A stretch of DNA of 62,975 nucleotides, filler included, from Stramenopiles sp. TOSAG23-6 (GCA_900128565.1; 13 parts of 13 records of this genome joined end to end with filler, not necessarily neighbours in it), one strand, 5' to 3'. Shown: positions 1,046 to 60,083, counted from the first letter of the whole stretch. Notes: generated by a model not told the origin, from the letters alone. A program made the numbers and translations.

Positions 1046-2710
1046 ATGTCACGACGAGCAAAGGGTACTGCATTGACTGTACGAAATAACAGAACACCAG
1101 CTCGTAAAGCTGTTGTTCCAGCGAGAAAAGTTGCAGCTTTTGTAGACAAATTATATAAAATATTAGAGACGGCTTCTCCAGATATCATTCGTTGGACGAA
1201 TGGNGGCTCAGCTTTTGAAGTCAACGATACCGACAGACTTTCAAAGGAAGTATTATCTGTGTATTATCGAAGCGGAAATTTCCAAAGTTTTATTCGCCAA
1301 CTACATTTTTATATGTTTCGACGTATTGAAGATACAAAGAAAAAACAAACGAAAAAGACACATTGGGAATTCACACATGAATATTTTATTCGAGGTCGTC
1401 CCCATTTAATGTCAAAAATACAGAGAAAGACAAATGTATGTTTTATTTTTTTTTTTAAACCGAAAAAAAAAAAAATCCAATTTTTTTTTCGTAGGAAATT
1501 TTGTACCTAACAAATGTTTTAGAATTTTTTTCAAATATTTTTCCAAAATGCATGGTGACCTACAAACGAAAGCTGAGGTCAATGTTCTCAAGGAAGAAGT
1601 AGCAATGCTGCGTCATACCATGACCAATTTATATTCCAAGATGAACCAAATGTCACAGGTAATGCTTGCTCTTGTAAATGAAAGACCCGATTTACACTCA
1701 ACAATTAAAAACATGTATGCTTTTTTTTTTCGGTAAAAAAAAAATCGAATTTTTTTTCGTACGAAATTTTGTACCTAACAAAAAAATTTAGATTTTTTTG
1801 AAATATTTTTTCAAAATACATAATTTTAAGTCGAAGTCCACAAAGTACTGGACAGTCGCCAAATTTGAACCAAATCTCTTCGTCAATGGTTCCTTCCATG
1901 GCTACTCCTCTACCCATGCCTATAATACCAGTCAATACGAATAACATCAACACATTTTCCAGCGATTTTTCTACTGATTCAAAAAAAAGAAAATTAGGTC
2001 AAAGTACAACTGAGAAAAATAGTGATGATTTTTTACAGTTTAATTTTCCTCATGGAACAAGTACACAGCCACATATTAATTCAAACACAATACCCAAAAA
2101 TTCTCTTTCTCCAAATGAGGATGAAACATTTGCCATTGAATATTTAGGTGATTTGGAACGTGTACCATCACCAGATTACACTTTAATTTCTACCGATCGG
2201 AATAATGCGAATAGCCCTAACCCTAGTGGTTCTAATGGGAATGGGGTCAATACTAGTACTATGGACCCATCATGGAAGAAGTTTCCTGGTGATGGTAATA
2301 TTACAAGTTCATATGGACGTAGAAGGCATATTCCTAATTCATCACTAGATTTAACAAATGAAAAGAATGATTTTATAACNAACAATAATAACAATCATGG
2401 TAGTGANAATTTAGAAATGCCGAAATTTGATAGATTAGCTTCNTATGACAAAATTCCATATAGTGAGTTNAATAGATTATCAAGTATAAATAGTATTGGT
2501 AGTATAGATTTGACTGATTTAGGTATGGCCATTGATGACGCCGATAACCCTAATAGTAATAATCGTAATAACCCTAACCCTACAAATAAAAAAAANCAAN
2601 TTGGGGCACAAAAAAATGACGATGATATTTTAAATGTTTTAACCGATTCTCTATGGGATACACAAGACTGGGATGCTAATTTAAAACCAAAGGAGAATAA
2701 TGATTTATAG
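1046..2710 (+). CDS. Heat-shock-factor-type transcription factor (HSF DNA-binding domain, coiled coil, low-complexity tail); 3 exons
   Basis: Motifs AFVDKLYKIL..IIRW...SFIRQLHFYMFR..WEFTHEYFIRGRPHLMSKIQRK. Removing introns 1436-1553 and 1715-1821 (both GT..AT) joins three ORFs in frame. Confidence 0.9.
1436..1553 (+). other. Family intron, GT..AT, 118 nt
   Basis: AAT|GTATG...GAAATTTTGTACCTAAC...CCAAAATGCAT|GGT. The AG downstream of the core (1521-1522) gives a frameshift and a stop. Confidence 0.85.
1715..1821 (+). other. Family intron, GT..AT, 107 nt
   Basis: AAC AT|GTATG...CGTACGAAATTTTGTACCTAAC...AAAATACAT|A ATT; removal restores the frame into ORF 1865-2710. Confidence 0.8.
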
Positions 2711-2832
2711 TCATTTTTAAAGATGTGTGTTGTATTATAATGTATATATTTTCAAAAAATAAAAAAAAATCGAAAATTTTGAATANTTTTGAATATTTTT
2801 GGGTACCTGCCCCATTGACACCATTATTTGAT

Positions 2833-5799: not shown

Positions 5800-8700
5800 T
5801 TACGCTCCAATAGATAATACATCTTGACCAGATCCACGTACAAACACAACTGGAGGCATATCTACTGATAATATTTCAAGCCAACTTGTATATCTTCTAG
5901 TTTCCATTTGAAGATCTGCCAAGGGTAGTTGTACAAATATGATTGCCGATTTGACCGATGCTTCGTATAACAATTCTCTTAAACGCAGTACTACATTGTG
6001 AAAAAATATTTTTCCAAAATGTTTTTTGTTAGGTATGTAATTAGGTACAAAAAAAATACATGAAATGAATATTGAAGACGTACTCCTGCTAGTTTTTGTA
6101 GAAGCGTATTCCCCTCTCGCACTAATGCCTCTCCCAAATAAACCTCCTTTATTTTCACCATCATTCGTTGAGAAACCTGCATGTTTGCAAATGGTTTCAT
6201 ATTGTAATGTTGTTTTTTCACTTGGTCGAGTGGTTAACTCTGCCTCTATGGCCTCTACTTGTGCCGGTATTCGTAATTTTTTTAATAAATGGATCATTCT
6301 ACCAAGTGCTGCACTCAATTTTTCTTTGAAGGTTTTCGACTTGGATGCAANTACAAAAACTCGTATGAAATGATTTTGCCATACACGATGTTTTTGCACT
6401 AGAAAAGCAAGTAAGATTGTAAAACCACCATCATTGGCTAGCCACCAAACATCAATGTATTGTTTATCTTTTTTTGAAGATATGCCCATAATAGAGCTCT
6501 CGGAATACGATTCTGACGACATACGTCGAAGAATCGGCTTAACTATTTGGTTGTTATTGTTTGAGAATGACTTATCNCTTTTAAAATTACCAAATACACC
6601 TGAAGTAGAACTATGGGGATTAGTTTGATCTTCCTTTTGGAAATTGTCGTTCTTTTCTTTTATTAATGGCAGAGGCAATGAAAACCCTGTATCTATATCA
6701 CGAAATATACCATTTGAATCTCGTAATACAATCATTCCATAATTGTGCCAAATAGAATCTTGTATTATNGCTTCATATTCTAAAACTTCAGTTGCTGGTG
6801 CTGTGTCCCAGTCCTTTTTCCATCCTATCAGTACTGTATTTGGTCTAATTCTACCAAGGCCAGTTGTTTGAAGTAAATTACAAAATCCTTCATGTAATGT
6901 TGGTGCACTAATCACTTCGCAGAATGCACCACAATGGCTATGTTTATTTCGCCATACATGAGGGTTATTATATAAAAAATCATGCATTTTAGCCTTGATC
7001 TCTTGAGCATTCAGAAGATCTTCTCTTCTTGAAAGAAATCGATTACCACTTAATTGTTTAGAGTTGCAAACAACATTACCACAACACATTACTCCACCAC
7101 CACTGGAGTTTATTATAATGGCTAATTTCATCATTGCCATTCTTGAATTTGAAATATGATGAGTATTATCATTAAAAGCTTCTAAACAACCTGTAAGTAC
7201 TAAAAGTTCGGGTCTAAATGTTTTAGCATGTGGTGAAATTTCATCAAGTTCTTGAATATGTTTCAAAGTTACTACATATTTTCTGGCCTCCTGTGCAGGA
7301 CCCCAATGAACATCAATGTCAAGAAATCCTACGTATACATATATAAACGCACCTAAAACAAATGATAACAGTGTATACATCCAATTCATAACAAACATAC
7401 ATACCACNCACAGGAGTGCACCAACCAATGCTAACCATTTATTATAGTATTTAAATGTAGGTCTCCAAGACGAATGATTAGCATTTGCTACAGAGAAACA
7501 AGCATAGTTCAATGTCGCATATGCAATCATGAAAAAGTTTGAAATGAGAGGGGCAATATAGTCCAACTCGCCAATCAAACAAAATGCAGTTCCAATCACA
7601 AAAGTGAGGACGTATCCTCTCACAGGTTCATTNCCATGTNTTTNGNAAAATANTTCNAAAAAAAATCTNAAAAATGTGTTAGGTACAAAATTTCGTACGA
7701 AAAAAAAAACAAATTNAAATTTTCAAAAAAATAAAACATACATCACCGCTACCTTTTGAAAAGAAACGTAAACAAGCCCATGGAAATATATTATCTGCTG
7801 CAAGAGATTGAAGAATTCGTGGAGCACCAACAATGGATGCTAATGCTGACGAGAGAGTCGCTGCCCATACACCAACGTATAAAAGTGGAGAAAATACTGA
7901 CACTGTTTCCAGAATCAGTTTATTATATAACAAACCTCCAGTTGGTATTTTTCCAGTAAAATTGTTTGTATATTTTCCAGCTCCATTATCTGGACATATT
8001 TGCATTCCATCTGGATCAGAACACCTNACACANGTTAGACCTACAATCCAAATAAATATTACATATGTTGCAAATGTGAGAGCAATACCACGCGATGTTC
8101 CTTTTGGAATAGCTTCTGAAGGATCGTCCAGGTCACCACTCATATTACAGCCAGCTGTTATNCCTGTGACAGCAGGGAAAAATACACTAAATACACTGAA
8201 AAATGAATACTTGAAACCTGTGGAAGGATCCACCTGAAATGCAGGTAAATACATAGACGTCCAGTTTGTATCAGACACTGATATTTTTGTATTGCCAAAT
8301 GTTGCTTTCAAATCAAATCCCCAGAAACCTAACCCTGCATTAGTTGATCTACTTGGAACACCTGGTAAGAAAATACCTATAAATATACTTACCATTGAAA
8401 CAATTAGAATAAATAATAATATACGCATACTTTTTGCATATAATTTTGCTCCCCCTCCGGCAGACACAGCTAATAATATACTCATAGTACCTACACAATA
8501 NANTCTCATATCCCACGCCCAAGATCCTAATAAAGGTTCAATATCATTTTTTTTTAATATATCGAGAAGAGATTCGACAAAACCTATTGTATACATTGAA
8601 CATGCTACGGCCTGTGCAAAATAAAATAATAAACCAATCACTCCGCCGAATGCAGGACCGAGATTTCTTGAAATCAAAAAATAAGGTCCACCTGTACCGA

Positions 8701-9311
8701 CTTCACCATTTGTACATGTATTTTGGAAAAATATTTCAAAAAAAAAAATTAAAATTTGTTAGGTACAACATTTCGTACGAAAAAAAAATTCGATTTTTTT
8801 GTAAAAAAAAAAAAAACATACATAGAGCAAATATTGAAAGAGCAGTGATACCCGTGACGATATTCGATAATATTACTATTAATGTGCCTAACAAAATACC
8901 TGCCTGACCAGTAACCCAACTAGTACGTAGAAACATAATTACTCCCCATATATTCAATAGAACAGGGACCATGACTCCATCAAACCAGTTCAATTTTGTA
9001 CCAGANTCTTGGGAGACTTGAGCTTTTTTCTTTACATATTTTTTATGAGACATTGCTTTTGAGTTTGGAGCATACACGTCTTTTATATTTTTTAAATCCA
9101 ATGATACATGAGAAGGATCTTTTACTTGTCTAAATTGTAATGTGTTTGGAGGGCTCTCATATGCATCGTCAAACTTTCTTACTTTGTTGAATTTATTCGA
9201 TGCAACAACGACCTTGGCCACTGTTCGCATAGACGGTACTTTTCTTTTACTTTCTATTGCTACTAGCGGAAGCATTGTATCTTTATCATCTTTAATAGCA
9301 TATTCTGACAT
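5800..9311 (-). CDS. SLC12 cation-chloride cotransporter (NKCC/KCC-like); 4 exons
   Basis: Motifs [32 protein letters not shown] and FVRGSG. Removing introns 8716-8821 (GT..AT), 7636-7741 (GT..AT) and 5991-6083 (GT..AG) rebuilds [20 protein letters not shown] and KTSRILRLRELL. Confidence 0.93.
8716..8821 (-). other. Family intron, GT..AT, 106 nt
   Basis: CTA T|GTATG...AAAATACAT|GT ACA AAT GGT. There is no AG between CCTAAC and the conserved TNG motif. Confidence 0.88.
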
Positions 9312-9753: not shown

Positions 9754-9786
<33 letters not shown>

Positions 9787-9891: not shown

Positions 9892-10240
9892 GGACATATA
9901 ACTTTTTTATCAAAGTTTCAAAAGATATTTACAACATTTGATTCAAATGGTGATGGAATAGTCGATGAGGAAGAATTAAGACATATTATTGTTACTTTAG
10001 ATAATTCAAAAACTCTAGAAAATGTCAACAAAATTGTAAATTTGATTGATGTATGTTTTTTATTTTTTTTTTACAAAAAAATCTAAATTTTTTTTTCGTA
10101 CGAAATTTTGTACCTAACAAATTTTGGAATTTTTTTTTAAATATTTTTCCAAAAAACATCCTTATAATAATCAACGCATTACATACAGTCAATGTATTAA
10201 TGCCCTATCCGATGAATTGATGCGCTTAGTGTGTATTTAA
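9892..10240 (+). CDS. EF-hand protein, last two exons, partial
   Basis: EF-hand FDSNGDGIVDEEEL. Removing intron 10051-10159 (GT..AT) gives IDPYNNQRITYSQC; stop at 10238-10240. Confidence 0.75.
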
Positions 10241-11091: not shown

Positions 11092-13951
11092 ATGCAGTCC
11101 AATGATGGCACCGAATGTCTCACTGTTGGAGCCGAAGCGTTTCGATTAATCGATAACCTGTCATTTCCGTGTATAATTAAAGATGTCAAAGTGGATACTT
11201 TCTCCGTACAATATACTGATGACGGTTTCATCGAAGACAGTGTCCCTCAAAGTGAGCTTACATCTCGTAGTGGTGTTATTGATTTAGTTAATTGTCAGCA
11301 GGATGTTGAAATAATTCGTCCGTTTAATGCACATAGAAAAGCAGATTTAGTTGTAGAAAAGACACCCGTATCTTTTGTTGATCAGAAAAGTGACTCAGTT
11401 GTAAAAGAAAAGTGTCAACTGGACAAATATATAGTTCACAAATGTAATACAATAGACAATAAGCCTGTATCAAACAAAGAACTATTAAAAACGGAAACAA
11501 AGAAGGAAACAACAACAATAAAAACGGACACAAACAATGTTTCAATTATAAAAAACTCCATCCACCCTAAATCTAATGTCTCCGACTCTGAAGCATCTTT
11601 AATTTTGAAAGCAGCTGGTGAGTCAAGAACTTGGAGCCAACTCAATGTCTTTGAGAAATGGGAAGCTATGAAAAAAGGGTTTAATCGTATTCTTGAAAAA
11701 CATGTACATTTTCATCATTTATTTCACCCTACCCTGATATATTGTGGAGTATAGAACGTTTTTTTTTTTTCACTTTTTTTTCGTAGGTAATTTTGTACCT
11801 AACAATTTTTTTTTGTTTTTGAAATATTTTTTTTTTTTTTTTTTGTAGATTCTTCAATTTTCTCCATATTTGTTCTTCAAATGTATTTTCTAGAATTCTA
11901 CTGAAATTATTGTACCTAAAGAAATATAAATCTAAGAACTCACATATTTTCACTAACCCTAACCCTAACCCTAATTTTCACAACACATGTTGAACAAATT
12001 TCCATCGCACTTCAACAGGACAATTCTCTGTTTAATGACAAATTCCAAAACACATTTGATACCATTGATGAGTTTGATGATGTATGTTTTATATTTTTTT
12101 TTTTACCGAAAAAAAAAAATCGATTTTTTTTTTTGGTTTTTCGTACGAAATTTTGTACCTAATAAAACATTTTTTTTTTTTTTGAAATATTTTTCAAGAA
12201 TAAATTTTGTCATTGATGAACCAGAAGAACTGAATTTAAAAATAAGACAATTATCAAGAATGTTGAAACAATCAAAGAATACTATTATTTTTACAGGTGC
12301 TGGCTTGAGCACATCCTCAGGAATTCCGGCATATCGAGGGAAAAATAGTATCAAAAATATAGAAAAAAGAAAAAAAACATCTTTGTTGACTAAACATCCT
12401 AACCCTAACCCTAACCCTACTACACTTTCCACATCAAAAAAATCAAAAAAATCAAAAAAATCAAAAACATCAAAAACATCAAAAACATCAAAAACATCAA
12501 AAACATCAAAAACATCAAAAAACGCTGAATCAGAAGAAAAGCATACGACACACTTGCCTTCTACATCTGATATGATTTCAATTGTGCCAAGCAAAGCACA
12601 CGAAATCATCACAAAACTTGTTGACTCAAAACAGTATGTTTTCATACTTTTAAACCCTAACCCTAGTAACCCTACCCTAAAAAAAAAAGAAAATTTTAAA
12701 TCTTCATTCAAAACCAAACATATTTTTTTTTTTTTTTTAATTTTTTTTACAATATTGTGTTCATTGCCATCATTTCACAAAATATTGATGCATTTCTTTC
12801 TTATCATTATATGAATTACATGGTATTTTTTTTTTTAATACGAAATGTTGTACCTAACAATTTTTTTTAGATTTTTTTTGAAATATTTTTTTACAATATT
12901 TTGTTCATTGCGTCATTTCACAAAATATTGATGGATTACACCTTAAAAGTGGTTTATCTAAAGAATCATTATATGAATTACATGGTAATATTTTTATGGA
13001 AGTGTGTAATTCTGTAGATGGTTGTACGTTTTCATAATTGAATTTCAAATTTATTTTTTTTTCGTACGAAATTTCGTACCTAACAAATTTTACAAAAAAA
13101 AAATATTTTTTTTCACATTGTATGTGGCATAGAGACAATTCAAGAAAATCCAATGACGTCATTTATTGAATTACAGGAAAGATTCAAACAAAAGAAAAAT
13201 GATACCATTGATGTTCATGTATGTTTTATTTTTTTTTATTGGGAATTTTGTACCTAAAATATTTTGGAATTTTTTTTGAAATATTTTTCCAAAATATTTT
13301 TTTTTTCATACGAAATTTTGTACCTAACAAATTTTAAAAAAAATTTCGAAATATTTTTCCAAAATACATTTAACAGGACGAAAATGTCAATATTGTAATG
13401 CCCCTACTCGAGATAATATTATCGGTTATGGTGAACCACTTAATGTACATTTTCATTTGAATTACATATATATATATATGTAGATATTTTTCTACCAAAA
13501 TTTGTACTTTAAAAAAAAATATTTTTTTTTCTACCAAAATTTGTACTTACAAAAAAAATATTTTCTTTACAAAAACGTTTCACGATATAGGCAGATGTCA
13601 TTAGTAAAGCTTCAAAAATCGCAAAGAATGCAGATTTGATCATTGCAGTAGGATCTAGTCTTGGAGTTATTCCAGCAGCGACTCTTTGTATGTTTGTCTT
13701 ATCCTAATCCTTCAATGATACAATTATTTCTATTTCATAAAAAAAAATTTTTTTTTGTTTTTCATAGTAAATTTTGTACCTAAAAAAAAAAAAAAAAAAA
13801 AAATATATTTTGTTATACTACATGTACAATGGGAAAATCATTAGTAATTATTAATATAGGTAAAACATCGCTAGATACTACGGCGCAACTTTTGATTAAA
13901 GGAAATATTAATGATGTTTTTGAACAACTATCAACTAGAATGTATATATAA
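11092..13951 (+). CDS. SIRT6/7-like sirtuin with an N-terminal Tudor-like domain; 8 exons
   Basis: Motifs [47 protein letters not shown] and LVIINIGKT. Introns at 11704-11988, 12082-12205, 12634-12901, 13024-13123, 13219-13369, 13445-13590 and 13688-13823. The join to ORF 11092 is less certain than the sirtuin core. Confidence 0.85.
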
Positions 13952-15981: not shown

Positions 15982-16916
15982 ATGAACGGCGACTTAAAAG
16001 TACAACATTGTAAAGGTCCTCGGCGTCGAACCAGCACAATGGTCGTTGCTGAAGGTGGTGAGGTTAAAAAGAGTCAAAAAGAGTCAACGAAAGAATCTAC
16101 CTTCTGGTCTCAAATCACGGCACGAAAAAGTTTGGAAGTTATACTTACTGAGGAAAGTGAAGCAGATTTAGATCGATCTCTAACCCTTACTGATTTACTA
16201 GCTATTGGTATTGGTGGTACAGTAGGTTCTGGAATTTTTGTAACGACAGGCTTGATTGCGCATGCTTATGCCGGGCCTGGCGTTGTTTTGAGTTGGTTAA
16301 TCGGTGGTGTCTGTTGTTGTATCAGTGGTTTATCGTATGCAGAAATGAGTTCTCGTCTGCCTAGTGCGGGTTCGGCATATGCATATACTTACTATACTAT
16401 GGGTGAACTTCCGGCATTTATTGTTGGTGGACTATTGTATGTTTTCGTTATTAATTTCCAACTTATTTTTTTACAAAGAAAATTTTGTACCTAACGAATT
16501 TTTTTTAACTTGACATATTTTTTTACATTACTTGACGTTAGAATACGGAGTAAGTGCAGCAGCTGTTGCTCGAAGTTGGGGTGATAAAGTTGTATTTGTT
16601 ATTGAGGAACAGTTTAAGCTAAATGGGGTTGGTTTCCTAAATTATGAATATGGAGCTTTCATGGCAGGTTTAATTCAGTTTTTATCTGTTTTACTTCTTC
16701 TTCTTGGATTTTCTATAAGTACACGAGTGATAAAGGTGGCAACAGTGTTTAAAGTAATACTTGTAATTTTTATCATGATTGTTGGGTTTATTCATTTTGA
16801 TATTTCAAATGTAAGTCCAATTGTACCAAAGTCACATCAGTTCATACCCAGTACTAAAGATAAAGAAAATGGTTTACATTCCTTCCCATCATTTGGTTTC
16901 ACTGGTATAATGTAGG

Positions 16917-16947
<31 letters not shown>

Positions 16948-18003
16948 TTAAACTTTTATACCAAAGATTGTTTTCTTACAAATTGTACAAAAAAAATAAT
17001 TATTTTTGCACAATACATGGCAGGTGCAACTCAAGCTTTCTTCGGTTTTGTCGGATTTGATGAAGTGTGTTGTATGGCAGCACAAACACAAGACACCCGA
17101 AGAGTTATGCCAAAGGCTGTTCTTGGTACTATCGCTGGTGTCACTGTCCTCTCTGCTGGTGCAAGCTTAGCTCTTGTAGGTATGTCAGATTATAAAAACA
17201 TTTCAGCTGTTTCAGGTTTTACTTCCGCATTCCAGCAGCATGACTTAGACTGGGTAGCATACATTGTCTCTTTTGGAGAACTTTTGACATTGCCTTTTGT
17301 TGTGGTCATTGCTTTTTTAGCACAACCACAATTACTTTTTGCAATGTCGAAAGATGGGCTCTTACCTGAAATCTTTAGTGCGACAGATAAGAACAAGAAT
17401 TTGTTTTGGGGTACGGCCATTAGTGGAACTTTAATGACGGTTATTGCGGTATTTGTTCCCTTTACTCATCTTGAAGATGTTATTTGCACTGGCGTATTAA
17501 TAAGTTTCAACATGACTAATGTAGCTCTTATTCTAGTACGTCTTCGGGAACAAAAACAATCCCTCGACACACAGAAAATCAAAGTAAAATCGACCAATAC
17601 ATTTTCACCTGAAAATATTGGACCAGCTTTGCTCTGGTTTTATATAATGTTTACTATTATATCTGCATTTCTTATTACATACTCCGATTTCAATGAACAC
17701 TCAAATACTGTTCCGATATCTACAGTACTATTCTCAGTTGCAGTGGCCATTATGTGTCTTGCACTTTTATGCTATTTCAGTAAACATGAAAAAGAATCTT
17801 TCTCTGACCCAGATGATATTTTTAAAGTACCACTTGTTCCGTTCATTCCATGTGTTGGAATCGCTTTGAATACGTACCTCATTAGTACAACAAAGTGGGA
17901 AAGTTTACTTCTTACAGTTGGATTTTTGGTGCTGTGTATCCTCGGATATTTCGCATATGGTTACCAAAATGCAGAATCACGAAACAATTGGAATCGCAAA
18001 TAA
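15982..18003 (+). CDS. Cationic amino-acid transporter (APC/CAT family); 3 exons
   Basis: Motifs GIGGTVGSGIFV, AGSAYAY, FFGFVGFD and FKVPLVPFIP. Introns 16437-16533 (GT..TT) and 16912-17018 (GT..AT). Confidence 0.92.
16437..16533 (+). other. Family intron, GT..TT, 97 nt
   Basis: CTA TT|GTATG...CATTACTT|G ACG TTA GAA TAC gives GGLLTLEYG; TT is present at both junctions. Confidence 0.8.
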
Positions 18004-34094: not shown

Positions 34095-35150
34095 TTCAAT
34101 GTTGGAGCAGCGTTTTTGCATATAATTGAACCTGTCTCTCGACTTCCAGTAAATGAAACTTTAGCAATATTTGGATGTTGAGATAAATGCTGACAAATAT
34201 TGTGAAAAATATTCTTTGAATTTTTTTTTTCTTACTTTGTTAGCTATGAAATCTTGTACGAAAAAACAATTGTGATGATGATGATACACGTACCCACACT
34301 GCCGTCTCCTAAGACCACATTTAAAACTCCATCGGGTGAATATTGAAAACGTAATTACAAAAAAAAAATCTTAGGTACAACATTTCGTATGAAAAAAAAA
34401 ACTGATACATTCGAAATTGAAATGAATGTTGAAAACGTATAATCCAGCCTCAGTGAACACTTCTGCAAGAGCAAGAGCAGTGAGAGGAGTTAATTCGGAT
34501 GGCTTAAATACAATAGAATTACCACATGCCAATGCAGGGGCAACTTTCCACGACATTCCTTGAATTGGATAATTCCAAGCACCAATACCAGCAGTGACTC
34601 CAAGAGGCTCCCGTCTAGTATATGCAAAAGAACCACCAGGCTGACCACCACCAATAGGAACATGAGTGCCTAAAGTAGCAAAGTTGCTACATAAACCTCC
34701 CATGTACTCAATACAGTCTCTTGCACTAATAACATCAACATATGGAGTCTCGGAAATAGGACGACCTGTGTCGATAGCTTCCAGCTCAGACAAAGCATCA
34801 TTTCGTTCAGTGAGTATATTGGCTGCACGGTGCATAATTCGACCTCTTTCGGCTCCAGACATGGCAGCCCATCTCCGCTGACCTTCGCATGCACTAGATA
34901 TTGCATAATCAACATCTTGCGAACACGCTACCTCGATTTCTGTAAGTATATCACCAGTATTTGGATTCGGAACAGGTATCGTCTCATTAGCCGATGACGC
35001 ATCGTGGAACTGACCATTGATCCAACTCTTCACACGTGGAGGAACACCCGAAATGCCATCGCCTTTATTGTAAGAGGCAAGACTTGTCACTGTCCTCCAA
35101 TGTGATATCCTCGGGTGTATAAGCCTACACCGGGTTAAATTCATCATCAT
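34095..35150 (-). CDS. Aldehyde dehydrogenase, ALDH9/betaine-aldehyde dehydrogenase-like; 3' partial
   Basis: Motifs REPLGVTAGIGAWNYP, KPSELTP, EAGLPDGVLNVV and KVSFTGS. Introns at 34338-34440 and 34195-34293, and one starting at 34094. Confidence 0.93.
34195..34293 (-). other. Family intron, GT..TT, 99 nt
   Basis: GTG G|GTACG...CACAATATTT|GT CAG CAT rebuilds VGQHLSQHP. Confidence 0.8.
34338..34440 (-). other. Family intron, AT..TC, 103 nt
   Basis: GGA TT|ATACG...CAATATTC|A CCC GAT rebuilds EAGLPDG. Confidence 0.8.
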
Positions 35151-43838: not shown

Positions 43839-46800
43839 AAACTCCAAGTTTTTGTACATCTTCTCGACATTTACCAAATAAATCACGACATTGACCACTT
43901 TTGCATTGTTGACCATTTCCACATTCTTCATTATTTGAATGACATGGAGAGCCATGAGGAATCGTACTGCATAACTTATCACGACAGGTTTGTCCTAGAC
44001 CACATGTTGTTTCTTTATTCATTGGACATTTTGATAATGTATCTGGAATAGCAACGCAATCACCACTTAAAATATCACATTTTTGTTCAGCGTCACAGTC
44101 CATATTTGACGTGCATTTACTTCGTTTTGTTATTAGTTTTATTTCTTCAAAATGACAAAGACGTAAACATCTTTTCTTTATACAAACGATTCCATGTATT
44201 TTGGAAAAATATTTCAAAAAAAAATTATGAAAAATTTGTTAGGTACAAAATTTCGTATGAAAAAAATTTGAAAAAAAAATTGAAAAAAAAAAATTGAAAA
44301 AAAAAAAAGACATACATTCCCTACACAGGATTTTTCATTCGTTGCACAACTTGCAGGTTTTTGACCAAATACTCCAAAGACAATCATACATTTTCCTTTT
44401 GTAGTACAATATTGACCAATTCCACAATCTTGATCACTAAAACATTTGGAACCTTGTGACATAAATATACATTTTGTATCAAAACATTTATGTTGATATG
44501 GACAGTCAAAAGAATGACTACATCTTATTTTGTTTTTTGTTCTTAATTTCATATTTCTTACATGTTCAATAGTTTCAGTCATTGCAGCATTACAATAAAA
44601 TCTCCGACACTTTCCAGCGAGACATGTTTGTCCTTCTCCACAGGAGTTAAATTGTCCATCTAAACCACAATAACTCAAAACTGGTCTATATTCACATATT
44701 CCAGTATCACTTTGTTTTGAAGCAACACATCGTTGACCATTTCCACAACCACTCAATTCTTCAGACCCACTCTTATTACTTAAACAAACTGAACCTTCCA
44801 AAATGTTTAAACATCTCCCAGCAGCACATCGTTGATTGGCTGTACAACCTAAATTATCAAAACATAATTTGCCTGAGGCTGGATAGAGAAAACCTTTAAT
44901 GAGTGGTTTTGTTTTTCCATAAATTGAAATACAATAATTATTTTGACATCTTTGTGAATATCCACAATCCTCTTCAATATTACATGGAGTGGAACTAAAT
45001 ACAAACATGCAGATGCCTAAAACACATCGGAATCCATTGCCACACTCATTCGAAGTATTACCATCTGTAGTCGTACATTTTTTATTCATAATATTTTTTG
45101 TATTTTTTGTATTTTCTTCAGTATTTTTTGTAGTATTTTTACTATTTTTAGTCGTATATACATCAATTGTTGAATAGAGATCCATACATTTACCTCTGTC
45201 ATGAATACCAATTGAATCTTCCACATACAATTTATTTTTTATTCTTGATACTAATGAAACTTCTACTTGATTTTTTGAATGTACTTTAGCTTTTGAATGT
45301 TCTAAACTTTGAAATCTATATGTATTTTGATCATCATTATTTTCCATGTCACAGACCTGTCCACTACCACAATCTTCATCATGAACACATGGAGCCCCTT
45401 CTGGAATACTTGGCATATGTGAGAATATTGTAGATAAACTAAGAGCAATTTCTCTTTCTACTACATTTCTTCTTTGAATTTTTATTGTAAAGAAATATTT
45501 TTTTTAATTTTTTAATTTTTTTTGGTTAGGTACAAAATTTCGTACGAAAACTAAAAAAAAAAATTAAAAAAAATTAAATTTTCAAAAAAAAAAAAAAACA
45601 TACTGAATCATCAAGTTCTTTTCCTTTCCCTGTTAGCAAAAGAATCATTCTTAACTCTTTATTAATTTTTATTAGCGACGTTTGTAAAATATTTAATTTT
45701 ACTTCATTTGCTTTGATTTCTGCAGTATTTGTACTACACTTTTTCAAATCTAATTCAGCTTGATGTATTTTGGAAAAATATTTCAAAAAAAATTCTAAAA
45801 AATTTGTTAGGAAAAAAAATTTTAATTTAAATTTTGAAATTTAAAAAAAAACATACATATCTTTGTTGTAATTGTGATAATAAAGCTGACACTTCTTCTA
45901 GACCATCATGAATGATTTTATCCTGCATTGGACCAATAATTTTTTCCATAAATTCATTTCGTTTGTTTGTGTTGACTTTTTGTTGTATTTCTAATACTCT
46001 GACTTTTTTATACTTTTTCAGTTTATTCAACCAAAATATTTCTGTTTTCACGGACAAATCATACGAATGTTCAGTCTTTTTCAATTGTTCTTGTAATTGT
46101 TGTTTTAAATTATTCATGAGACGATTAAAATTTGACTGATTTTGAGTATTTTTTAGAGTATTTTTTAGAGTATTTTTTTGAGTATTTTGTGGAAAACCAA
46201 TAGCTGAAAGACCAGCTTGAGTCATCATTACATTGGTTAAATTTTTGATTTTTTCTTTCAAATTATTGATTTCTTTTACAACATCTCTCGACGCAATTTT
46301 TGCTTTTTTATATTCACAATCTCCGATACAGATGTCATATTTTTGACGTTCTAATATAGAGCATGTATTGTGAAAAAATATTTTTTTTTTAAACTTTTTT
46401 TGTTAGGTACAAAATTTACTATGAAAAAAAAAATTACTTTTTTAAAAATTTTTTTTTTTTGAAAAAAATAATATATACATGTGGCTTCACAGGATCCCGG
46501 TACCACACGACGACCACCATGCCCGGTGGTGAATAATGCATGATTTTGGCTAGTACCATCAGGATTTTTTGTTGGGTTTGTTGGAATACGAAGGGAGCTA
46601 CCTAAAGCAATTGGAATTTTTTTTTTCATTGTTTCATTTTTTTTATTTTCTTCGTTTTTTTTCATTGTTTCGTTTTTTTTATTTTCAGTATTTTTTTTAT
46701 TTTTAGTATTTTTAGTATCAGAATTGACAGTTTTATCATGATTACCTTTATTATATTTCATATTATTTGTATTTTTTTTCATACCAAATTCTGTACCTAA

Positions 46801-47604
46801 CAAAGATTCATCTGTTTTTGATTGAACCATTCCAAATATTAATTTTTGAACATGTCTTGAATGATCAATACTCATAATATTTATGTTTTTGTCATGTATT
46901 TTTTCTTCACGGTTTTTAATTTTTTCATAATTAGTGGCAAAATACGGAGGACAGACACAATGGACGTCTTTATCACCTAATAGACATACACAAGTTGTAT
47001 TTTTATGTAATTTTAGGAAAATATTTGAAAAAAAAAATCAAATTTTTTGTTAGGTACAAAATTCACTACGAAAAGTTTTTTTGAAATATACAAAATTGAA
47101 ATATCAAAAACGTACATAGGATTGTACCATTTGGACGACTCTTTTCGTTACTGTGTGTAATCGTTCCCCCACTAGAGGATAACATGATTGATTCCTACTT
47201 TGAATGAAACAATCAAGCCCTTCAAAAAGAAGCGCTTCGACTCCACAAGAACGTAAAACAATTCTAGCAGAGAGTCTATCAAAGTATTCGTGTTTCACTG
47301 AGCCAGTGTTTTGTGTATGGGCTCTATCGGCTCTATGTTGTTCATCATTTGGATCTACATCTATTATTTGATGTCTCTCTTCTTCTTGAGCGTTTTGAGT
47401 TTCTTCCTGTATATACACGTCAACGTCTGATTCTAGATTGAATGGTTCTGATTGATCCACTGCCGATAGAGTTTGCGTGTTAGACGTCCTTTCTATTTTC
47501 CCCGCCAAACTGAAAGTACCGAAATTAGAGACACAGTCGCTCTGGAAAATGGCAACGTAAAACAGAACTGTATAGATAGACATGCGACGTGATTGACGTA
47601 TCAT
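43839..47604 (-). CDS. Secreted protein with a coiled coil and many short Cys-rich repeats; at least 6 exons, 3' partial
   Basis: Signal peptide and repeated C..D.DCG.GQ.C units. Removing introns 47005-47115, 46363-46478, 45763-45856, 45480-45603 and 44194-44315 links six ORF segments in frame. Confidence 0.75.
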
Positions 47605-52346: not shown

Positions 52347-53211
52347 TTACTTAACACCAGGTTTTGTATTTGGTCGATTTTGATTGATGAGATTTTCAAG
52401 ATCGTCCACGGTAGAAATGCCATGAGCAGACTTTGCAATTTTACGTGATGCTTCAAAAGCATTTGACACCCGAGTTTTATCGGCTTCTAGCTCAGTCATA
52501 TGAGATTCGAGTCTCTCACTGATGTCATCAATGAGTTTCGCACAAGCAGTTGCACCTGTATGATGAAAAAATATTTCAAAAAAAAAATAAAAATTTGTTA
52601 GGTACAAAATTTCCTATGAAAAAAAAATTCGATTTTTTTGTAAAAAAAAAAATAAAACACACCTGTACCCCCGAGGGAATTATAGCTCATCATTACTGAA
52701 TATGGATCAAGAACTTTTTTCACCTTTTCTTCATCAGCATCAATACCTTCGTTTTTCAAATGTTCCATAACAGCGTTTATGTCAGTTAAATTTCTTCCCG
52801 ATCGAGTTAATTTTCCAACAAGGGAACCAACAATGTATTCTGGAAAAATATTTCAAAAAAAAAAAAAAATCGTTAGGTACAAAATTTCGTACGAAAAAAA
52901 AAATCAAAATTAAAAAAAATAAAACATACACGTTGTACCTCGAGATATTATCATTGCACCACCATTATTTGGCATTTCTAGACAAGTTGGTCTATCATCA
53001 CCAACACCTCCACCATTTGGTAATGGAGAACTACACAAAATATTATTGTCAGAATCTTTAGGGTTAGGGTTACTGTCTGAATCTTTAGGGTTAACGTTAA
53101 CGTGTACTGCATTATGACTAGACTTGGGATTGCGCAATAAACTTTTATCTATTGCCATTAATTCAACTGAATTTCCCGCAGTTACAGCAAACGTACCATC
53201 TGAAGACATAC
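52347..53211 (-). CDS. Hypothetical protein, last three exons
   Basis: Open exons separated by family introns ~52833-52931 (5' boundary ambiguous by 2 nt) and 52556-52662 (GT..AG). Confidence 0.55.
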
Positions 53212-55113: not shown

Positions 55114-57461
55114 ATGGATGAAGATACCAAATTGGATGACATTGCTAAATCAGGAGCGGTTCAAATTATTTCCATTGACATAGAAAATGAAACTGTGGAA
55201 CTTCACGAGGAAGCTCTCAAAACTATTTTGGGCAGAATTCCGGAAGAAACACCAGTTTCAGTTATCAGCGTCGTAGGTGCGTTTCGTATGGGTAAATCGT
55301 TCATGCTTGATTTAATGTTACGTTACTTGAAGAATACTTCGATCCTTGCCGATAATGGTAGTTTTGAACTACGTCAAACAGAAACTGCTAATGAAACGAA
55401 CCTCAGTGACGATGAAGGTTGGATCAGTTTAGACACACCACTAGAAGGGAACGAAAGACAGGGTCAAGGACACACTGGTTTTTCCTGGCGTTCTGGTAAA
55501 GATCGTATGACTACAGGAATATGGATGTGGCCACAGCATTTTATTCGTACATTGTCCTCTGGGAAAGAAGTAGCCGTTTTATTAATGGATACACAAGGTA
55601 TGTTTGATGGTCGTACTTCCCAAATGTTAACAGCGGCAATATTTGGAATTAGTACTTTGCTATCTTCTTATCAAATCTATAATGTCAGTCGTCAAATACA
55701 AGAAGATAACTTACAACATCTCGCTTTATTTGCCGAGTATGGACGGCTCGCGTTAGTCGGGGAGCAAAAAGCTCATGAGGAAATTCTCAAAAGACCTGCA
55801 AAAAAAAGCATGTATGTTGTCATCATGAATTTCGAATTTATTTTATTTTTTCAAAACAATTTCATACCTAACAATGTTAAGTTTTGAAAACACACATTTA
55901 CACAATACATGTCCAGTGGAGGAACTGATACTTCTAGCTCTACATCATCTAATAATGATGATAAGAAAAAATCTGCACAGGAAAATAGAAAAGAAAAACA
56001 AAAAGAACAAAAAGAACAAAATGAACAAAATGAACAAAATGAATCGGCACCTTTTCAACGATTGGATTTTGTAGTTCGCGATTGGCAAAATTTTGAGGAT
56101 GAAGATGAAACCGATGAAATGCTGCAATCAATGCCGGGTTATCTAACTCAAATGGTATCGGCACATCACAATGAAAAAGCTTTGAGTGATCTAAATGATA
56201 CTAGAACCCAAATTTATGCATGCTTCAAAAATGTGGGTTGTTTTTTACTCCCTCATCCTGGTTTTGCCGTAACTCGTAAAGATTATGCGGGGAATATGGC
56301 AGATATTAGAGAACCTTTCTTACGAATGTACGTTGTCATTCTCTTAATGTCTTACTGTTAACGTAAAAAATGTAGTTATTTTTTTTTTGGTAGAACATTT
56401 TTTTTTGAAATAATTTTTTTTTTGAATATTTTTTCACAAAACATGGTGGATATATATTTAAAACGTATTTTTAAAGAACATTTAGAGCCAAAAATTATTA
56501 ATAATCTTGCATTAAATGGTTCACGTATGTTTATATGAATTTCTAATTTAATATTTTTTTCATACGAAATTTTGTACCTTGTTTAGATATGCTAAAGGCT
56601 ATGTTTCACTATTTCGCGAAGCAAAAATTTTTCCAGAAGCAAAAACACTTCTTGCAGCGACAGCTTGTACGTTTTCAATCATTCATTTCAAATTTATTTT
56701 TTTTCATATGAAATTTCATACCTAAAATATTTTTTTTTTTTAGTTTTTATCATGCACGTTTATTTATTCAATTTAAAAAAAAAAATAATACCTATTTCTC
56801 TGCTTTCGAATGGTTTCAATGACTATTATTTCATGTTTTCATGTGTAATGACACACCTAACAAAAAAAATCAAATGTTTGAAATATTTTTTTACTATATA
56901 TATGCTGCAAACTTAAATGCAAAAGAAGCAGGATTTAAACGGTATAGAATGACAATGAATACTCGTTGCTCAGCTTCTATGGAATATGTAGGACCTGCAG
57001 ATTTAGAGCAACTTCATAAAAAGTCAACACAATTAGCTCTTGACAGCTTCAACGAAATCGCAACTGTTGGCAATGCACTTGAAATTGATAAATTCAGAAC
57101 GTCATTGATGGATGAAATATTGAAACAATTTCAGGAATATCAACAACAAAATTCCAACAAAGATCCCTTCAAAAATGTGGAATACTTTATTATTCCTCTA
57201 TTCATTGCCTTTGTAGCATATTTTGGACGTATTTTTAGTGATTTGACTTGTTATGAAGCAGAAACCAAATCATTTGACTTTGAATATGCAGATGTTTGCA
57301 ATCGAGCTTCAATATACTTTGGATATGTTCAATGGGCAATTATTTTTTTTGTTCTTGCTGGATTTCTCTCATCATCTGCCGTTGCTCTTTCACAACTTAA
57401 AATGATTTTTAACATGTTGAGTGGTGCATCCGTCCTTGCAGCCAATGCGAATTCGAAATAA
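55114..57461 (+). CDS. ATL: Atlastin-like GTPase; 5 exons
   Basis: GAFRMGKSF, TTGIWMW, LMDTQG, VRDW, LPHPG and a C-terminal TM pair. Introns at 55812-55910, 56328-56444, 56525-~56579 (truncated) and 56667-56901. Confidence 0.9.
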
Positions 57462-58286: not shown

Positions 58287-58318
<32 letters not shown>

Positions 58319-58541
58319 CAACGCACTTGAATGATATAAAAATCCCATAATTGAAACAGTGTTGATATTTTGTACAAATACGTCAATGTGTTTTTGTTGT
58401 TGTTAGATTTTAGAATTATTTATAAAAACGAATCAGTTATTCAAATCATAAAAAAAATTGAAAAAGTAAAAAAATAAATTTAAAAAAAAAATTGAAAAAA
58501 AAAAAAAATTAGGGTTAGGGTTTAAAAAAAAATTAAACTAC

Positions 58542-60083
58542 GTCAAGTGGTGTCGAATGCGATAATAAAGTCAATAACCAAGGTGTTGCATATAGCTCTG
58601 GTACCATATCTTCATTAATTAATTTCTTGGCTAATATAGGATTATGAAATTGAAGAAGTAATTGAAACAAATGTAGTTGACATTGTAAACTAATAAAATC
58701 ATTTTTTGTGTTTTTCGTGTTTTTTGTATTTTTTGTATTTTTCGTGTTTTTTGTATTATTATCATCATAATTTGAAAATGAGTGAGGCAAAAATTTCTTT
58801 GAAAATGAGGAAAAAAGTTGAAAACAAATACCAGCATTTAATTTGTCCATTAATTCTACATCATACTTTTGTGGTTCATTTACATACCATTGTATATCTT
58901 CATCAAATAATTCGTTAGGTACAGAATTTCGTACGAAAAAAATACTACCATTATCAAGAGTTTGGTTTCGTTTTTGTGTTTTACAATATACATTTGATAA
59001 TGTTTTTTCATTTTTTTCATTTTTTTCATTTATACTATTAGTGATTCCAGTTCTTGATACATCATGTATCTTATGTACACTTTTATTTCTATGTAACTCA
59101 TCATGTGTAGTAGCATGTATTTTGAAAAAATATTTCAAAAAAAATCTAAAATATTTGTTAGGTACAAAATTTCGTATGAAAAAAAACACTTAAATTTGAA
59201 ATTATGTACACTTTCATTTTTTTTTTTATTCATATTGTGTTTACTATTTCCATTTATCGTATCTGTTTTATTTATATTACAAATTGATAAATACACAAAG
59301 GGAGCCAATACTTCGTTCACGTATTATGGGAAAAAAAAAAATTGAAAATTTGTTAGGTACAAAATGTACTACAAAAAAAAAAAAAAAAAAAAAAACTAAA
59401 TTTGAAATTCGAAATTGAAAACATGCATACCTTGCTTATATCTTGAGTTTTGAATGGCACAATTAAAATGTAATAAGTGATATAAAACTCGTTTTGTGGA
59501 ATTTTTTTTAAATTCATGTATTTNGTAAAANTATTNCAAAAAAAANCTAAAAAAAAANGTTAGGTACAAATTTTCGTACGAAAAAAAAAATAAATTCGAA
59601 ATTGAAAAAAAAATAAAAAGATACATCAATATCACCTCTAGTTCGTTCTATGTCAACACGGATAATACGATGATTAAAGCTTTCTTTATACTTTGTGTAT
59701 ACAATTTCTTTGTGGAGCGATTGTACAATTTGTGTTGTTTCAGAATTTGTTGTAGGGTTAGGGTTTTTGGTTTTGAAATTATTTTCTTTTATTTTTTTAT
59801 TTTCAGAATGTTCAGTACCAAAATTTTTGTTTGAAGACATCGAAGAGACTTGAAGCAAAATGCACCATACAGTAAAACGAATATAACCTGGAATTTCTCC
59901 ACCTAATGATTTACATAGATGACGAACTACATTAGGTCTAGGTGGGCTGGTGGGGGAAAACACTTCGTCATGAAGTTTTGCGATATATTTTTGACGTAGA
60001 CTGTGTGCATCGTCCTGCAAAGTATTTGACAATACAGTAGGTATCACTGGTACATCTTTATCTGTATCATGGGTGGGTTTCAT
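58542..60083 (-). CDS. TBC-domain Rab GTPase-activating protein; 3' partial
   Basis: IRVDIERT, YKQGMNEVLAPF and LLQFHNP..LYATPWLLTL. Introns at 59516-59624, 59319-59426 and 59115-59209. Confidence 0.88.
59319..59426 (-). other. Family intron, GC..GT, 108 nt
   Basis: CAA GGT AT|GCATG...TAATACGT|G AAC GAA rebuilds the TBC motif YKQGMNE. Confidence 0.8.

What the first reader, a model, noticed from the sequence alone, without database searches (positions are those of the whole stretch)
1436..59624. Window-wide family of non-canonical introns whose 3' splice site is usually not AG (mostly GT..AT)
Seen: unrelated genes on nearly all contigs are interrupted by similar inserts of mostly 87-125 nt, co-oriented with the gene: GTAYG-[T/A tracts]-TTTCGTACGAAATTTTGTACCTAAC-..GAAATATTTTT..(C/A)AATAY-NN. 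The reading frame, and where present conserved motifs (SLC12 TNG, sirtuin HLTGRKC, ALDH, TBC), is restored when the cut falls 2 nt after the TAY-like triplet. Manual tally of 38 non-redundant complete introns: 3' end AT 27, AG 5, TT 3, TC 1, AA 1, GT 1. Known: U2-type introns almost always end in AG, and U12 AT-AC introns carry an ATATCC 5' motif that is absent here. Mass non-canonical introns are described in a few lineages (euglenids, Amoebophrya, Fritillaria), but I do not recognise this signature. Inference: an AG-independent spliceosome variant or another splicing route operates here. I cannot confirm novelty without a search.
Basis: partly seen in the sequence, partly recalled or inferred. 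Interest (0 to 1): 0.96.

Follow-up and report, generated by a model that had tools for sequence, protein, structure and literature searches.

The report
Repeated introns that lack AG ends
Nearly every gene in this AT-rich marine protist sequence is interrupted by copies of one ~100-base repeated element that looks like an ordinary intron at its start and branch site but usually ends in AT instead of AG.

Summary
The window is 13 short contigs (two are duplicates). All carry copies of one ~90-125 nt element: (AT)|GTAYGTTTT...CGTACGAAATTTTGTACCTAAC...T-rich...YCA(A/C)AATAY+2 nt|(G). The core 11-mer occurs 52 times against 1.1 expected.

Exact removal, from the G of GTAYG to 2 nt past TAY, restores conserved proteins without an indel at 8 junctions tested by homology (SLC12 x3, betaine-aldehyde dehydrogenase x2, cationic amino-acid transporter x2, sirtuin). 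It joins the longest flanking ORFs in 27 of 33 curated introns.

My tally of the 33 is 3' AT 23, AG 5, TT 2, TC 1, AA 1, GT 1.

- This is a very high-copy mobile-element ("introner") family.
- In 19 of 33 copies the exon also ends in AT, so GT..AT and AT..AC give the same mRNA.
- Three decidable introns reject the shifted reading.

No RNA evidence could be obtained, so spliceosomal, AG-independent removal is inferred, not shown. The closest precedents are Fritillaria and Amoebophrya transposon-derived non-canonical introns. Here the 5' site and branch box stay canonical, and the host's best named protein relatives are stramenopiles. I rate it a new variant of a known kind, of high interest.

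The parts
1436..1553 (+). intron, 118 nt, GT..AT, in HSF-type gene
   Evidence: full-length element; joins longest ORFs; HSF domain upstream
1715..1821 (+). intron, 107 nt, GT..AT
5991..6083 (-). intron, 93 nt, GT..AG, SLC12 gene (C)
   Evidence: homology scan with 26 SLC12 homologues; best is 93-nt removal, weak margin
7636..7741 (-). intron, 106 nt, GT..AT (= AT..AC), SLC12 gene (B)
   Evidence: homology scan; best is exact 106-nt removal
8716..8821 (-). intron, 106 nt, GT..AT (= AT..AC), SLC12 gene (A)
   Evidence: homology scan; best is exact 106-nt removal, 6 shift-equivalent cuts, none ending in AG
10051..10159 (+). intron, 109 nt, GT..AT
12082..12205 (+). intron, 124 nt, GT..AT (3' box TAAAT), sirtuin gene
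13024..13123 (+). intron, 100 nt, GT..AT, sirtuin gene
   Evidence: upstream exon matches SIRT7/6
13219..13369 (+). intron, 151 nt, GT..AT; one full element plus a 5'-truncated tandem copy; sirtuin gene
   Evidence: downstream exon aligns to SIRT7 222-242, weak (E 1.1)
13688..13823 (+). intron, 136 nt, GT..AT, sirtuin gene
16437..16533 (+). intron, 97 nt, GT..TT (= TT..AC), cationic amino-acid transporter gene
   Evidence: exons abut on chain 9uat_A at residues 116 / 117 (junction codon) / 118
16912..17018 (+). intron, 107 nt, GT..AT, diverged copy without the TACCTAAC box, same transporter gene
   Evidence: exons abut on 9uat_A at 249 / 250 / 251
21303..21395 (-). intron, 93 nt, GT..AT, ankyrin-repeat gene
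   Evidence: flanking ORFs of 946 and 172 codons
26059..26162 (-). intron, 104 nt, GT..AT
34195..34293 (-). intron, 99 nt, GT..TT, betaine-aldehyde dehydrogenase gene
   Evidence: homology scan; junction residue is G in 120 of 120 homologues, the shifted reading gives C
34338..34440 (-). intron, 103 nt, AT..TC (or TA..CA): neither end canonical; same gene
   Evidence: homology scan; junction residue L matches homologues (L 59, V 55, I 3, M 1, F 1, A 1 of 120), the shifted reading gives S, 0 of 120
39038..39154 (+). intron, 117 nt, GT..AG
   Evidence: the short exon between this and the next intron is open in two frames
39266..39366 (+). intron, 101 nt, GT..AT
39922..40020 (+). intron, 99 nt, GT..AT
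   Evidence: ORFs of 296 and 447 codons
42111..42197 (-). intron, 87 nt, GT..AG
44194..44315 (-). intron, 122 nt, GT..AT
   Evidence: repeat depth about 5e5 against about 11 for unique sequence in run X1
45480..45603 (-). intron, 124 nt, GT..AA
   Evidence: the shifted reading creates a stop codon
45763..45856 (-). intron, 94 nt, GT..AT
46363..46478 (-). intron, 116 nt, GT..AT
   Evidence: 3' boundary spanned by independent metagenome contigs
47005..47115 (-). intron, 111 nt, GT..AT
52556..52662 (-). intron, 107 nt, GT..AG
52833..52931 (-). intron, 99 nt, GT..AT, 5' site GTGTATG (2 nt upstream of the usual register)
   Evidence: only the 99-nt removal joins the 113- and 77-codon ORFs
55812..55910 (+). 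intron, 99 nt, GT..AT, diverged copy
56328..56444 (+). intron, 117 nt, GT..AT, diverged copy
56525..56586 (+). intron, 62 nt, GT..AG, 3'-truncated copy
   Evidence: frame test not met
59115..59209 (-). intron, 95 nt, GT..AT, TBC-domain gene
   Evidence: TBC domain in the downstream exon
59319..59426 (-). intron, 108 nt, GC..GT, TBC-domain gene
   Evidence: junction gives YKQGM|NEVLAP (the TBC motif is recalled, not tested)
59516..59624 (-). intron, 109 nt, GT..AT, TBC-domain gene
46762..46817 (+). partial element copy antisense to the surrounding minus-strand ORF

Best explanation
A lineage-specific, very high-copy 'introner' family has filled the genes of this AT-rich marine protist with ~100-nt introns.

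Each copy carries four features. The first is a yeast-like 5' splice site (GTAYGT). The second is a branch-site-like box (TACCTAAC, preceded by a small hairpin CGTACGAAATTTTGTAC) 33-55 nt before the 3' end. The third is a T-rich tract. The fourth is a 3' box YCA(A/C)AATAY followed by exactly two more nucleotides, usually AT, after which the exon resumes, usually with G.

Shown: the copies are repeated, sit in sense orientation in unrelated genes, and must be removed exactly to give conserved proteins.

Inferred: the major spliceosome removes them from pre-mRNA. U1/U6 would read GUAUGU and U2 would read UACCUAAC. The second step would be aimed at the position 2 nt past AAUAY rather than at an AG. 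AGs lying closer to the branch box are skipped.

Inferred and unresolved: how the site is read. It could be by the 3' box, by the short helix that the palindromic termini can form, or by a first-last nucleotide pair (G1 with U-1 in 26 of 33; the single A1 intron ends in C).

Also unresolved: how the family spreads. One option is a DNA transposon with a 2-bp AT duplication. The other is reverse splicing into AU|G sites.
For: - Repeat family: 52 core matches against 1.1 expected. Pairwise identity reaches 0.92, median 0.67.
- Depth over the element is thousands of times that of flanking unique sequence in three DNA runs.
- 13 of 26 contig ends fall inside a copy.
- Exact removal is required. Homology scans give the nominal junction as best at SLC12-A, SLC12-B, SLC12-C, ALDH-1 and ALDH-2. 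Solved-structure alignments abut without a gap at two transporter junctions. 27 of 33 join the longest ORFs.
- Splice-signal-like positions stay conserved in diverged copies: +1 G 32 of 33, +2 T 32, +3 A 31, +5 G 29, +6 T 32; -4 A 29, -2 A 29, -1 T 26. A CT[AG]A[CT] box was found in 30 of 33.
- Similarity stops at exon -3 and exon +2.
- Register: the 2-nt-shifted reading fails in all 3 decidable introns (S where 0 of 120 homologues have S; C where 120 of 120 have G; a stop codon).
- All 33 curated introns are co-oriented with their genes.
Against: - There is no RNA evidence. The single RNA run laid (X8) covered only repeat parts and showed no spliced joint.
- No spliceosome gene or snRNA of this organism could be examined.
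- For 19 AT/AT introns the chemistry could equally be AT..AC.
- The terminal helix shows no covariation beyond consensus: 160 paired cells against 157.7 in permutations, and 1166 of 5000 permutations reach the observed value. Folding z-scores are weak, +1.0 to -2.3.
- The A1...C-1 intron is one case in a draft assembly.
- A target-site duplication is not shown beyond AT. Among 14 introns that are not AT/AT, only 2 match.
- The curated boundaries were partly chosen by frame.
Confidence: 0.6

Rival explanations
1. For the majority class the chemistry is AT..AC: the intron is ATGTAYG...ATAC, shifted 2 nt. It would be removed as a U2-type or minor-spliceosome-like AT-AC intron, and only decayed copies use other cuts.
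For: 19 of 33 have AT before GTAYG and AT as the last two letters, so both readings give the same mRNA. An A-first, C-last pair is known to be tolerated (recalled). TACCTAAC resembles the U12 branch box TCCTTAAC at 6 of 8 positions (recalled consensus).
Against: The shift fails in 3 of 3 decidable introns. GTAYGT would sit at +3 to +8, out of register with U1/U6. The U12 5' box RTATCCTT is met in 0 of 33. The branch box lies 33-55 nt from the end, far beyond the short U12 spacing (recalled).
Confidence: 0.12
2. The removal is RNA excision without the spliceosome. It would be guided by the helix that the palindromic termini form (exon AU + GUAU with AUAC + AU), as proposed for euglenid nonconventional introns.
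For: The terminal helix appears in the minimum-energy and centroid folds of 5 of 8 copies. Positions +1:-3, +2:-4 and +3:-5 can pair in 31, 31 and 29 of 33. The one A at +1 faces a T at -3. The cut sits a fixed 2 nt past the helix, whatever the letters.
Against: There is no covariation beyond consensus. The helix is absent or broken in working introns such as 16437..16533 and 34440..34338. A strong 5' GTAYGT, a branch box and a T-tract persist in diverged copies. Those signals are unnecessary under this model.
Confidence: 0.1
3. The inserts are not removed from RNA at all. Either they are cut out of DNA (like ciliate internal eliminated sequences), or the genes are dead or the inserts are assembly artefacts.
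For: Short direct repeats (AT) and inverted termini resemble excision elements (recalled features). The assembly is a fragmented draft with Ns.
Against: All 33 curated inserts are co-oriented with their genes, which DNA excision does not require. Exons are otherwise intact and conserved. Inserts are present in independent DNA runs, including across an exon-intron boundary. No listed DNA joint skips an element exactly, though 140 joints were not shown. Lengths are mostly not multiples of three, so retention would break nearly every gene.
Confidence: 0.05

Closest known systems
Introner elements (Micromonas pusilla, Aureococcus, dinoflagellates, many aquatic protists; PMC9860276 and PMC11282704, passages read)
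   Same: Short, near-identical, multi-copy sequences that are the introns of unrelated genes. They often have inverted termini and short flanking repeats, and their removal leaves the mRNA unchanged. They are concentrated in aquatic protists.
   Different: Described families keep GY..AG ends, and those surveys start from annotated introns. Here 28 of 33 lack a 3' AG.
Fritillaria borealis / F. pellucida non-canonical introns (PMC13326754, abstract and sections 4 and 21 read)
   Same: They are transposon-derived, the 3' AG is a minority and 3' AT is the commonest end (44% and 34%). A pyrimidine-A-pyrimidine triplet sits at the 3' end (here CAT in most). They are removed by a U2-type spliceosome in that animal.
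   Different: In Fritillaria the 5' end is non-GT too (AG/AC and AG/AT classes; only 5% GT/AG). Here 31 of 33 keep GT, with a full GTAYGT and a strong branch box. The host here is a protist whose best named protein relatives are stramenopiles, not a tunicate.
Amoebophrya non-canonical introners (PMC7789003, seen only in search listings and through the review PMC11282704)
   Same: Repeated intronic elements with inverted termini and short duplications. Most of those introns are non-canonical.
   Different: Both ends vary there and U1 snRNA was reported missing. Here the 5' site is canonical.
Euglenid nonconventional introns (PMC11282704 passages; PMC12501133 and PMC11170887 in search listing only)
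   Same: The ends can pair and bring the splice sites together. Short repeats sit at the junctions.
   Different: Euglenid introns lack a 5' GT consensus and a pyrimidine tract. Here both are present.
U12-type (minor) introns and U2-type AT-AC introns (recalled knowledge)
   Same: They tolerate non-AG 3' ends. The AT..AC reading is formally possible for 19 of 33.
   Different: The 5' box RTATCCTT is absent in 33 of 33. The branch box lies too far from the 3' end.

Membership tests
Introner / transposon-derived intron family | Many near-identical copies that occupy intron positions in unrelated genes | tested here: met
   52 core matches against 1.1 expected; 33 curated introns in HSF, SLC12, sirtuin, transporter, ALDH, TBC and other genes; identity up to 0.92
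Introner / transposon-derived intron family | Removal leaves an uninterrupted, conserved coding sequence | tested here: met
   8 junctions by homology; 27 of 33 by frame
Introner / transposon-derived intron family | Spliced out of RNA | not testable with these tools
Introner / transposon-derived intron family | Terminal inverted repeats and target-site duplication | tested here: inconclusive
   Termini GTAT...ATAC pair in 29-31 of 33. The exon's last two letters equal the intron's last two in 21 of 33 (4 of 5000 permutations reach this), but only 2 of the 14 that are not AT/AT match
Canonical U2-type GT-AG intron | 3' terminal AG | tested here: not met
   AG in 5 of 33. No shift-equivalent reading gives AG at the SLC12, ALDH or transporter junctions
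Canonical U2-type GT-AG intron | 5' GT with extended consensus and a branch box upstream of a pyrimidine tract | tested here: met
   GT 31 of 33, GTAYGT profile; CT[AG]A[CT] box in 30 of 33, 33-55 nt from the end
U12-type intron | 5' box RTATCCTT | tested here: not met
   +5 is C in 1 of 33 and +6 is C in 1 of 33, never together
U12-type intron | Branch box about 10-26 nt from the 3' end (recalled range) | tested here: not met
   Distances are 33-55 nt
Euglenid-type nonconventional intron | Ends held together by a helix that is maintained by selection | tested here: inconclusive
   The helix is predicted in 5 of 8 folds, with no covariation beyond consensus
Internal eliminated sequence (DNA excision) | No orientation bias relative to genes; absent from somatic DNA | tested here: not met
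   33 of 33 curated copies are in sense orientation. Inserts are present in all DNA runs laid. Somatic and germline DNA could not be told apart

The most novel reading that the evidence does not exclude
This protist's major spliceosome has re-specified the 3' splice site genome-wide. Tens of thousands of introns would keep a textbook 5' site and branch site but end in U (mostly AU) instead of AG. The last nucleotide would be read against the first one (G1 with U-1, and A1 with C-1 in the one variant), at a fixed 2 nt past an AAUAY box. That would make it a natural system in which the second step of splicing is uncoupled from AG while the first step stays ordinary, in a lineage far from the tunicates.
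Probability: 0.4. Interest if true: 0.9.

Novelty: new variant of a known kind. Interest (0 to 1): 0.8.

Why it matters
Why GT..AG is nearly universal, and how the second catalytic step picks its site, are open questions. The known mass exceptions (Fritillaria, Amoebophrya, euglenids, diplonemids) change both ends or use unknown machinery.

Here only the 3' end departs from the rule. The 5' site, branch box and pyrimidine tract stay canonical. That isolates 3' site recognition as the changed step, and the same genome supplies thousands of natural variants, including AG-ending siblings.

It also bears on annotation. Gene finders that demand AG would miss most introns of such a genome. They would report broken or short genes and too few introns.

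It adds a case of intron gain by a mobile element on a very large scale, about one copy per 1.3 kb in this window.

Tried and rejected
- RNA evidence. One run search found 7 DNA runs and 1 metatranscriptome run with a 0.06 share of words. The second, on contig 10 only, showed RNA contigs on repeat parts only, no spliced joint and almost no exon cover. That gives no verdict.
- Own genome: none held.
- Rfam at gathering threshold and ARAGORN on the window: nothing.
- More copies elsewhere. A 17-mer scan returned 64 loci from metagenome contigs, 31 from genome contigs and 6 from viral contigs. All were single chance matches. The element profile found no full-length copy in the 101 loci.
- Same-species spliced proteins. 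The best 'longer' hits were 88% (ETFA), 56% (SLC12) and 59% (ALDH) identical, so there were none.
- TBC homologues. The representative search gave 1 low-complexity hit. Pfam on the 29- and 36-residue exons gave nothing. The TBC junctions therefore rest on frame and a recalled motif.
- Automatic orientation call by flanking ORFs. It was too noisy: 26 sense, 8 anti, 16 ambiguous of 50, with known sense copies in short exons called 'anti'.
- Terminal-helix covariation: not above consensus.
- First ORF-only junction scan: ambiguous, because T-runs keep frames open.
- Literature. A search on the motif letters was useless. 'GT-AT' with 'introner' found 0 papers. No listed paper joined non-canonical introns with marine stramenopiles. 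Passages of four marine-stramenopile genome papers mention introns only in methods or as 'few but long'. Supplements were not seen and may list introner families by taxon.
- An MMETSP taxon number in a hit's name resolved to a fungus and was ignored as unreliable.
Full report
WHAT THE WINDOW IS

The 62,975 bases are 13 contigs of about 4.75 kb joined by N44-TTAATTAATTAA-N44 spacers. Single Ns are scattered inside some contigs. Contig 7 (29188-33939) repeats contig 2 (4874-9644). G+C is 33%.

The genes are eukaryotic: HSF, ERCC1, SLC12, a class IV sirtuin, a G-patch protein, a cationic amino-acid transporter, a copper monooxygenase, betaine-aldehyde dehydrogenase, ETF-alpha and a TBC protein.

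The best named relatives of the SLC12 and ALDH proteins are heterotrophic stramenopiles (Hondaea, Cafeteria) and MMETSP transcripts, at about 50-57% identity. ETF-alpha is too conserved to place. The DNA recurs in seawater and marine metagenome runs. I treat the host as a marine protist, probably a stramenopile. Its exact lineage was not established.

THE OBSERVATION

The core TTGTACCTAAC (at most 1 mismatch) occurs 52 times against 1.11 expected; 0 of 100 shuffles reach that number.

Twenty full-length copies align end to end: GTAYGTTTT(A)TTTTTT, a variable A/T stretch, TTTTCGTACGAAATTTTGTACCTAAC, a T-rich stretch (often with TTTAGATTTT), GAAATATTTTTCCAAAATAC, then two more letters. A profile of them finds 80 hits at E<=1 in the window. 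Fifty hits remain at E<1e-3 once the duplicate contig is removed, and they lie on all contigs.

Thirteen of the 26 contig ends lie inside a copy. In the DNA runs laid on contig 10, summed depth over the element is thousands of times that over flanking unique sequence. In X1 it is about 5e5 against about 11; in X4 about 2.8e4 against 2-10. Summed contig depth is not a copy number, but the family is clearly very abundant.

EXACT REMOVAL IS REQUIRED

I scored every combination of 5' and 3' cut around a nominal junction against homologues, with no constraint on dinucleotides.
- For SLC12 (26 homologues) the best products are the exact 106-nt removals 8821..8716 and 7741..7636 and the 93-nt removal 6083..5991. 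The last has a weak margin.
- For the dehydrogenase (50 homologues) the best are the 103-nt removal 34440..34338 and the 99-nt removal 34293..34195.
- For the transporter, separate exon searches against solved structures abut without a gap on chain 9uat_A. Around 16437..16533 the residues run 116, 117 (junction codon), 118. Around 16912..17018 they run 249, 250, 251.
- The sirtuin exons flanking 13219..13369 align to SIRT7 on either side of a variable segment; this support is weak.

Across the 33 curated introns, 27 join the longest open frames on both sides (P = 1.4e-8 at a chance of 1/3). The six exceptions are short middle exons or exons with two open frames, and two of the six are among the homology-verified junctions. 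The curation used frame information in a few cases, so this P value is somewhat generous.

THE TALLY

For 33 non-redundant complete introns:
- 5' ends: GT 31, GC 1, AT 1.
- 3' ends: AT 23, AG 5, TT 2, TC 1, AA 1, GT 1.

A CT[AG]A[CT] box was found in 30 of 33, with its A 33-55 nt (mostly 39-45) from the 3' end. In 13 of those 30, at least one AG lies between the box and the real end and is not used.

Similarity between copies stops sharply. Exon position -3 is random, while -2 and -1 are A (25 of 33) and T (26 of 33). Exon +1 is G in 20 of 33 and +2 is random.

THE REGISTER PROBLEM

In 19 of 33 both the exon and the intron end in AT. In two more the pairs are TT/TT and AG/AG. For these, cutting at |GTAYG...TAYNN| or at |NNGTAYG...TAY| gives the same mRNA. 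'GT..AT' therefore cannot be told from 'AT..AC' even with RNA-seq.

The shift changes the protein in 9 of 33, and three of these can be judged:
- At 34440..34338 the unshifted cut gives L, where 120 homologues have L 59, V 55, I 3, M 1, F 1, A 1. The shifted cut gives S (0 of 120).
- At 34293..34195 the unshifted cut gives G (120 of 120). The shifted cut gives C.
- At 45603..45480 the shifted cut makes a stop codon.

The common rule is therefore a cut before the first letter of [G/A]TAYG and a cut two letters after TAY, whatever those two letters are. No equivalent reading of the verified junctions ends in AG.

One intron (34440..34338) starts with AT and ends with TC (or TA..CA), so neither end is canonical. 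It is the only A-first intron, and its last letter is C.

NOT AN ASSEMBLY ERROR

Contigs from a different study's metagenomes (X4 record 12, X5 record 20) are about 96% identical to the window. They run from the exon across the 3' boundary of 46478..46363, and no listed difference falls on the terminal AT.

WHAT IT MOST LIKELY IS

The element behaves like the introners described in Micromonas, Aureococcus, dinoflagellates and many other aquatic protists. Those are short multi-copy elements that are themselves the introns of unrelated genes (PMC9860276 and PMC11282704, passages read). Those families keep GY..AG.

Its 5' GTAYGT, its TACCTAAC box and its T-tract match what I recall of yeast-type U1/U6 and U2 recognition. 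These features persist in diverged copies that have lost most other similarity, for example 34293..34195, 16912..17018 and 55812..55910.

Strict co-orientation with genes, lengths that are mostly not multiples of three, and intact conserved exons argue for strand-specific removal from RNA. I therefore favour spliceosomal removal with a second step that does not need AG.

This step is inferred, not shown.

How the 3' site is found is open:
- The fixed two-letter offset from AAUAY suggests a sequence ruler.
- The termini are palindromic (ATGTAT...ATACAT) and a 6-7 bp helix across both splice sites appears in 5 of 8 folds. It shows no covariation beyond consensus and is missing in some verified introns.
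- The last letter is T in 26 of 33 and G in 5. The one A-first intron ends in C. A G-U and an A-C wobble are isosteric (recalled), which makes a first-last pairing rule a testable idea, but it rests on one variant.

HOW IT SPREADS

This is unresolved.
- A 2-bp AT duplication flanking GTAT...ATAC termini would fit a small DNA transposon. One partial antisense copy inside an ORF (46762-46817) and copies outside clear coding sequence lean that way.
- Against it, among the 14 introns that are not AT/AT only 2 show matching flanks. AT|G could instead be a preferred site for reverse splicing.
- Tandem partial duplications of the element occur (13219..13369; 14186-14332), and one includes an exon (12760-12900).

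COMPARISON WITH WHAT IS KNOWN

Fritillaria is the nearest precedent for the 3' end. In F. pellucida 44% and in F. borealis 34% of introns end in AT. A pyrimidine-A-pyrimidine triplet forms the last three bases. The introns derive from small transposons and are removed by a U2-type spliceosome with duplicated, diverged U2AF subunits (PMC13326754, sections 4 and 21). There the 5' end is also non-canonical (AG/AC, AG/AT; 5% GT/AG), whereas here 31 of 33 keep GT.

Amoebophrya, euglenids and diplonemids change both ends or lack the canonical signals (review passages; search listings).

Minor-spliceosome membership fails on the 5' box (0 of 33) and on branch distance.

I found no paper in the searchable library that joins non-canonical introns or GT-AT introners with marine stramenopiles. 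Passages of four marine-stramenopile genome papers are silent on this or report few introns. Supplements were closed, and journals outside the library were not searched, so prior description cannot be excluded.

VERDICT

Non-AG ends are real at the DNA and homology level, while the machinery is untested.
- I rate it a new variant of a known kind: a transposon-type intron family with non-canonical ends. Its distinctive signature is a canonical first-step set of signals with a non-AG, mostly AT, 3' end, in a lineage where I could find no report.

Noticed in passing
2215-2226, 2572-2583, 11951-11974, 12397-12420, 12655-12666, 25008-25019, 40617-40628, 53058-53069, 58509-58520, 59752-59763, 62476-62487, 62607-62618, 62683-62694: Short telomere-like runs (CCCTAA)2-3 occur 18 times against 0.13 expected. 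Several lie in frame inside coding ORFs, where they read as NPNP stretches (HSF, sirtuin, TBC genes). Others lie in introns.
   Followed up: partly
12760-12900: The sirtuin gene holds a tandem duplicate of an exon start plus its upstream intron 3' end. The first copy is decayed (frame broken, internal deletion) and probably lies inside a composite intron.
   Followed up: partly
46762-46817: A partial element copy lies antisense inside a 228-codon minus-strand ORF. It reads there as ...LLGTEFGMKK... It is either exonised or a decayed insertion.
   Followed up: no
4874-9644 and 29188-33939: Two contigs of the window are near-identical copies that differ mainly in where Ns stand.
   Followed up: no
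window 43724-48462 in run X8: A metatranscriptome run holds the element at summed depth up to about 3300, while the exons of the same contig are at or near 0. This could be excised or unspliced intron RNA, or carried-over DNA. It cannot be told from contigs.
   Followed up: no
e.g. 8770-8786 (minus strand) and most copies: Just before the branch-like box the element carries a near-perfect hairpin, CGTACGAAATTTTGTAC (6 bp, 4-nt loop). It appears in the predicted folds of several copies.
   Followed up: partly
34040-35162: The intron-bearing aldehyde dehydrogenase is closest to bacterial betaine-aldehyde dehydrogenases (up to 59% identity) and equally to a Hondaea protein (57%). Its origin was not examined.
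   Followed up: no
P0122 cluster and other top SLC12 hits: The closest SLC12 relatives (about 55% identity) are full-length single ORFs on genomic contigs up to 105 kb. Those organisms seem to lack introns at the three positions interrupted here.
   Followed up: no
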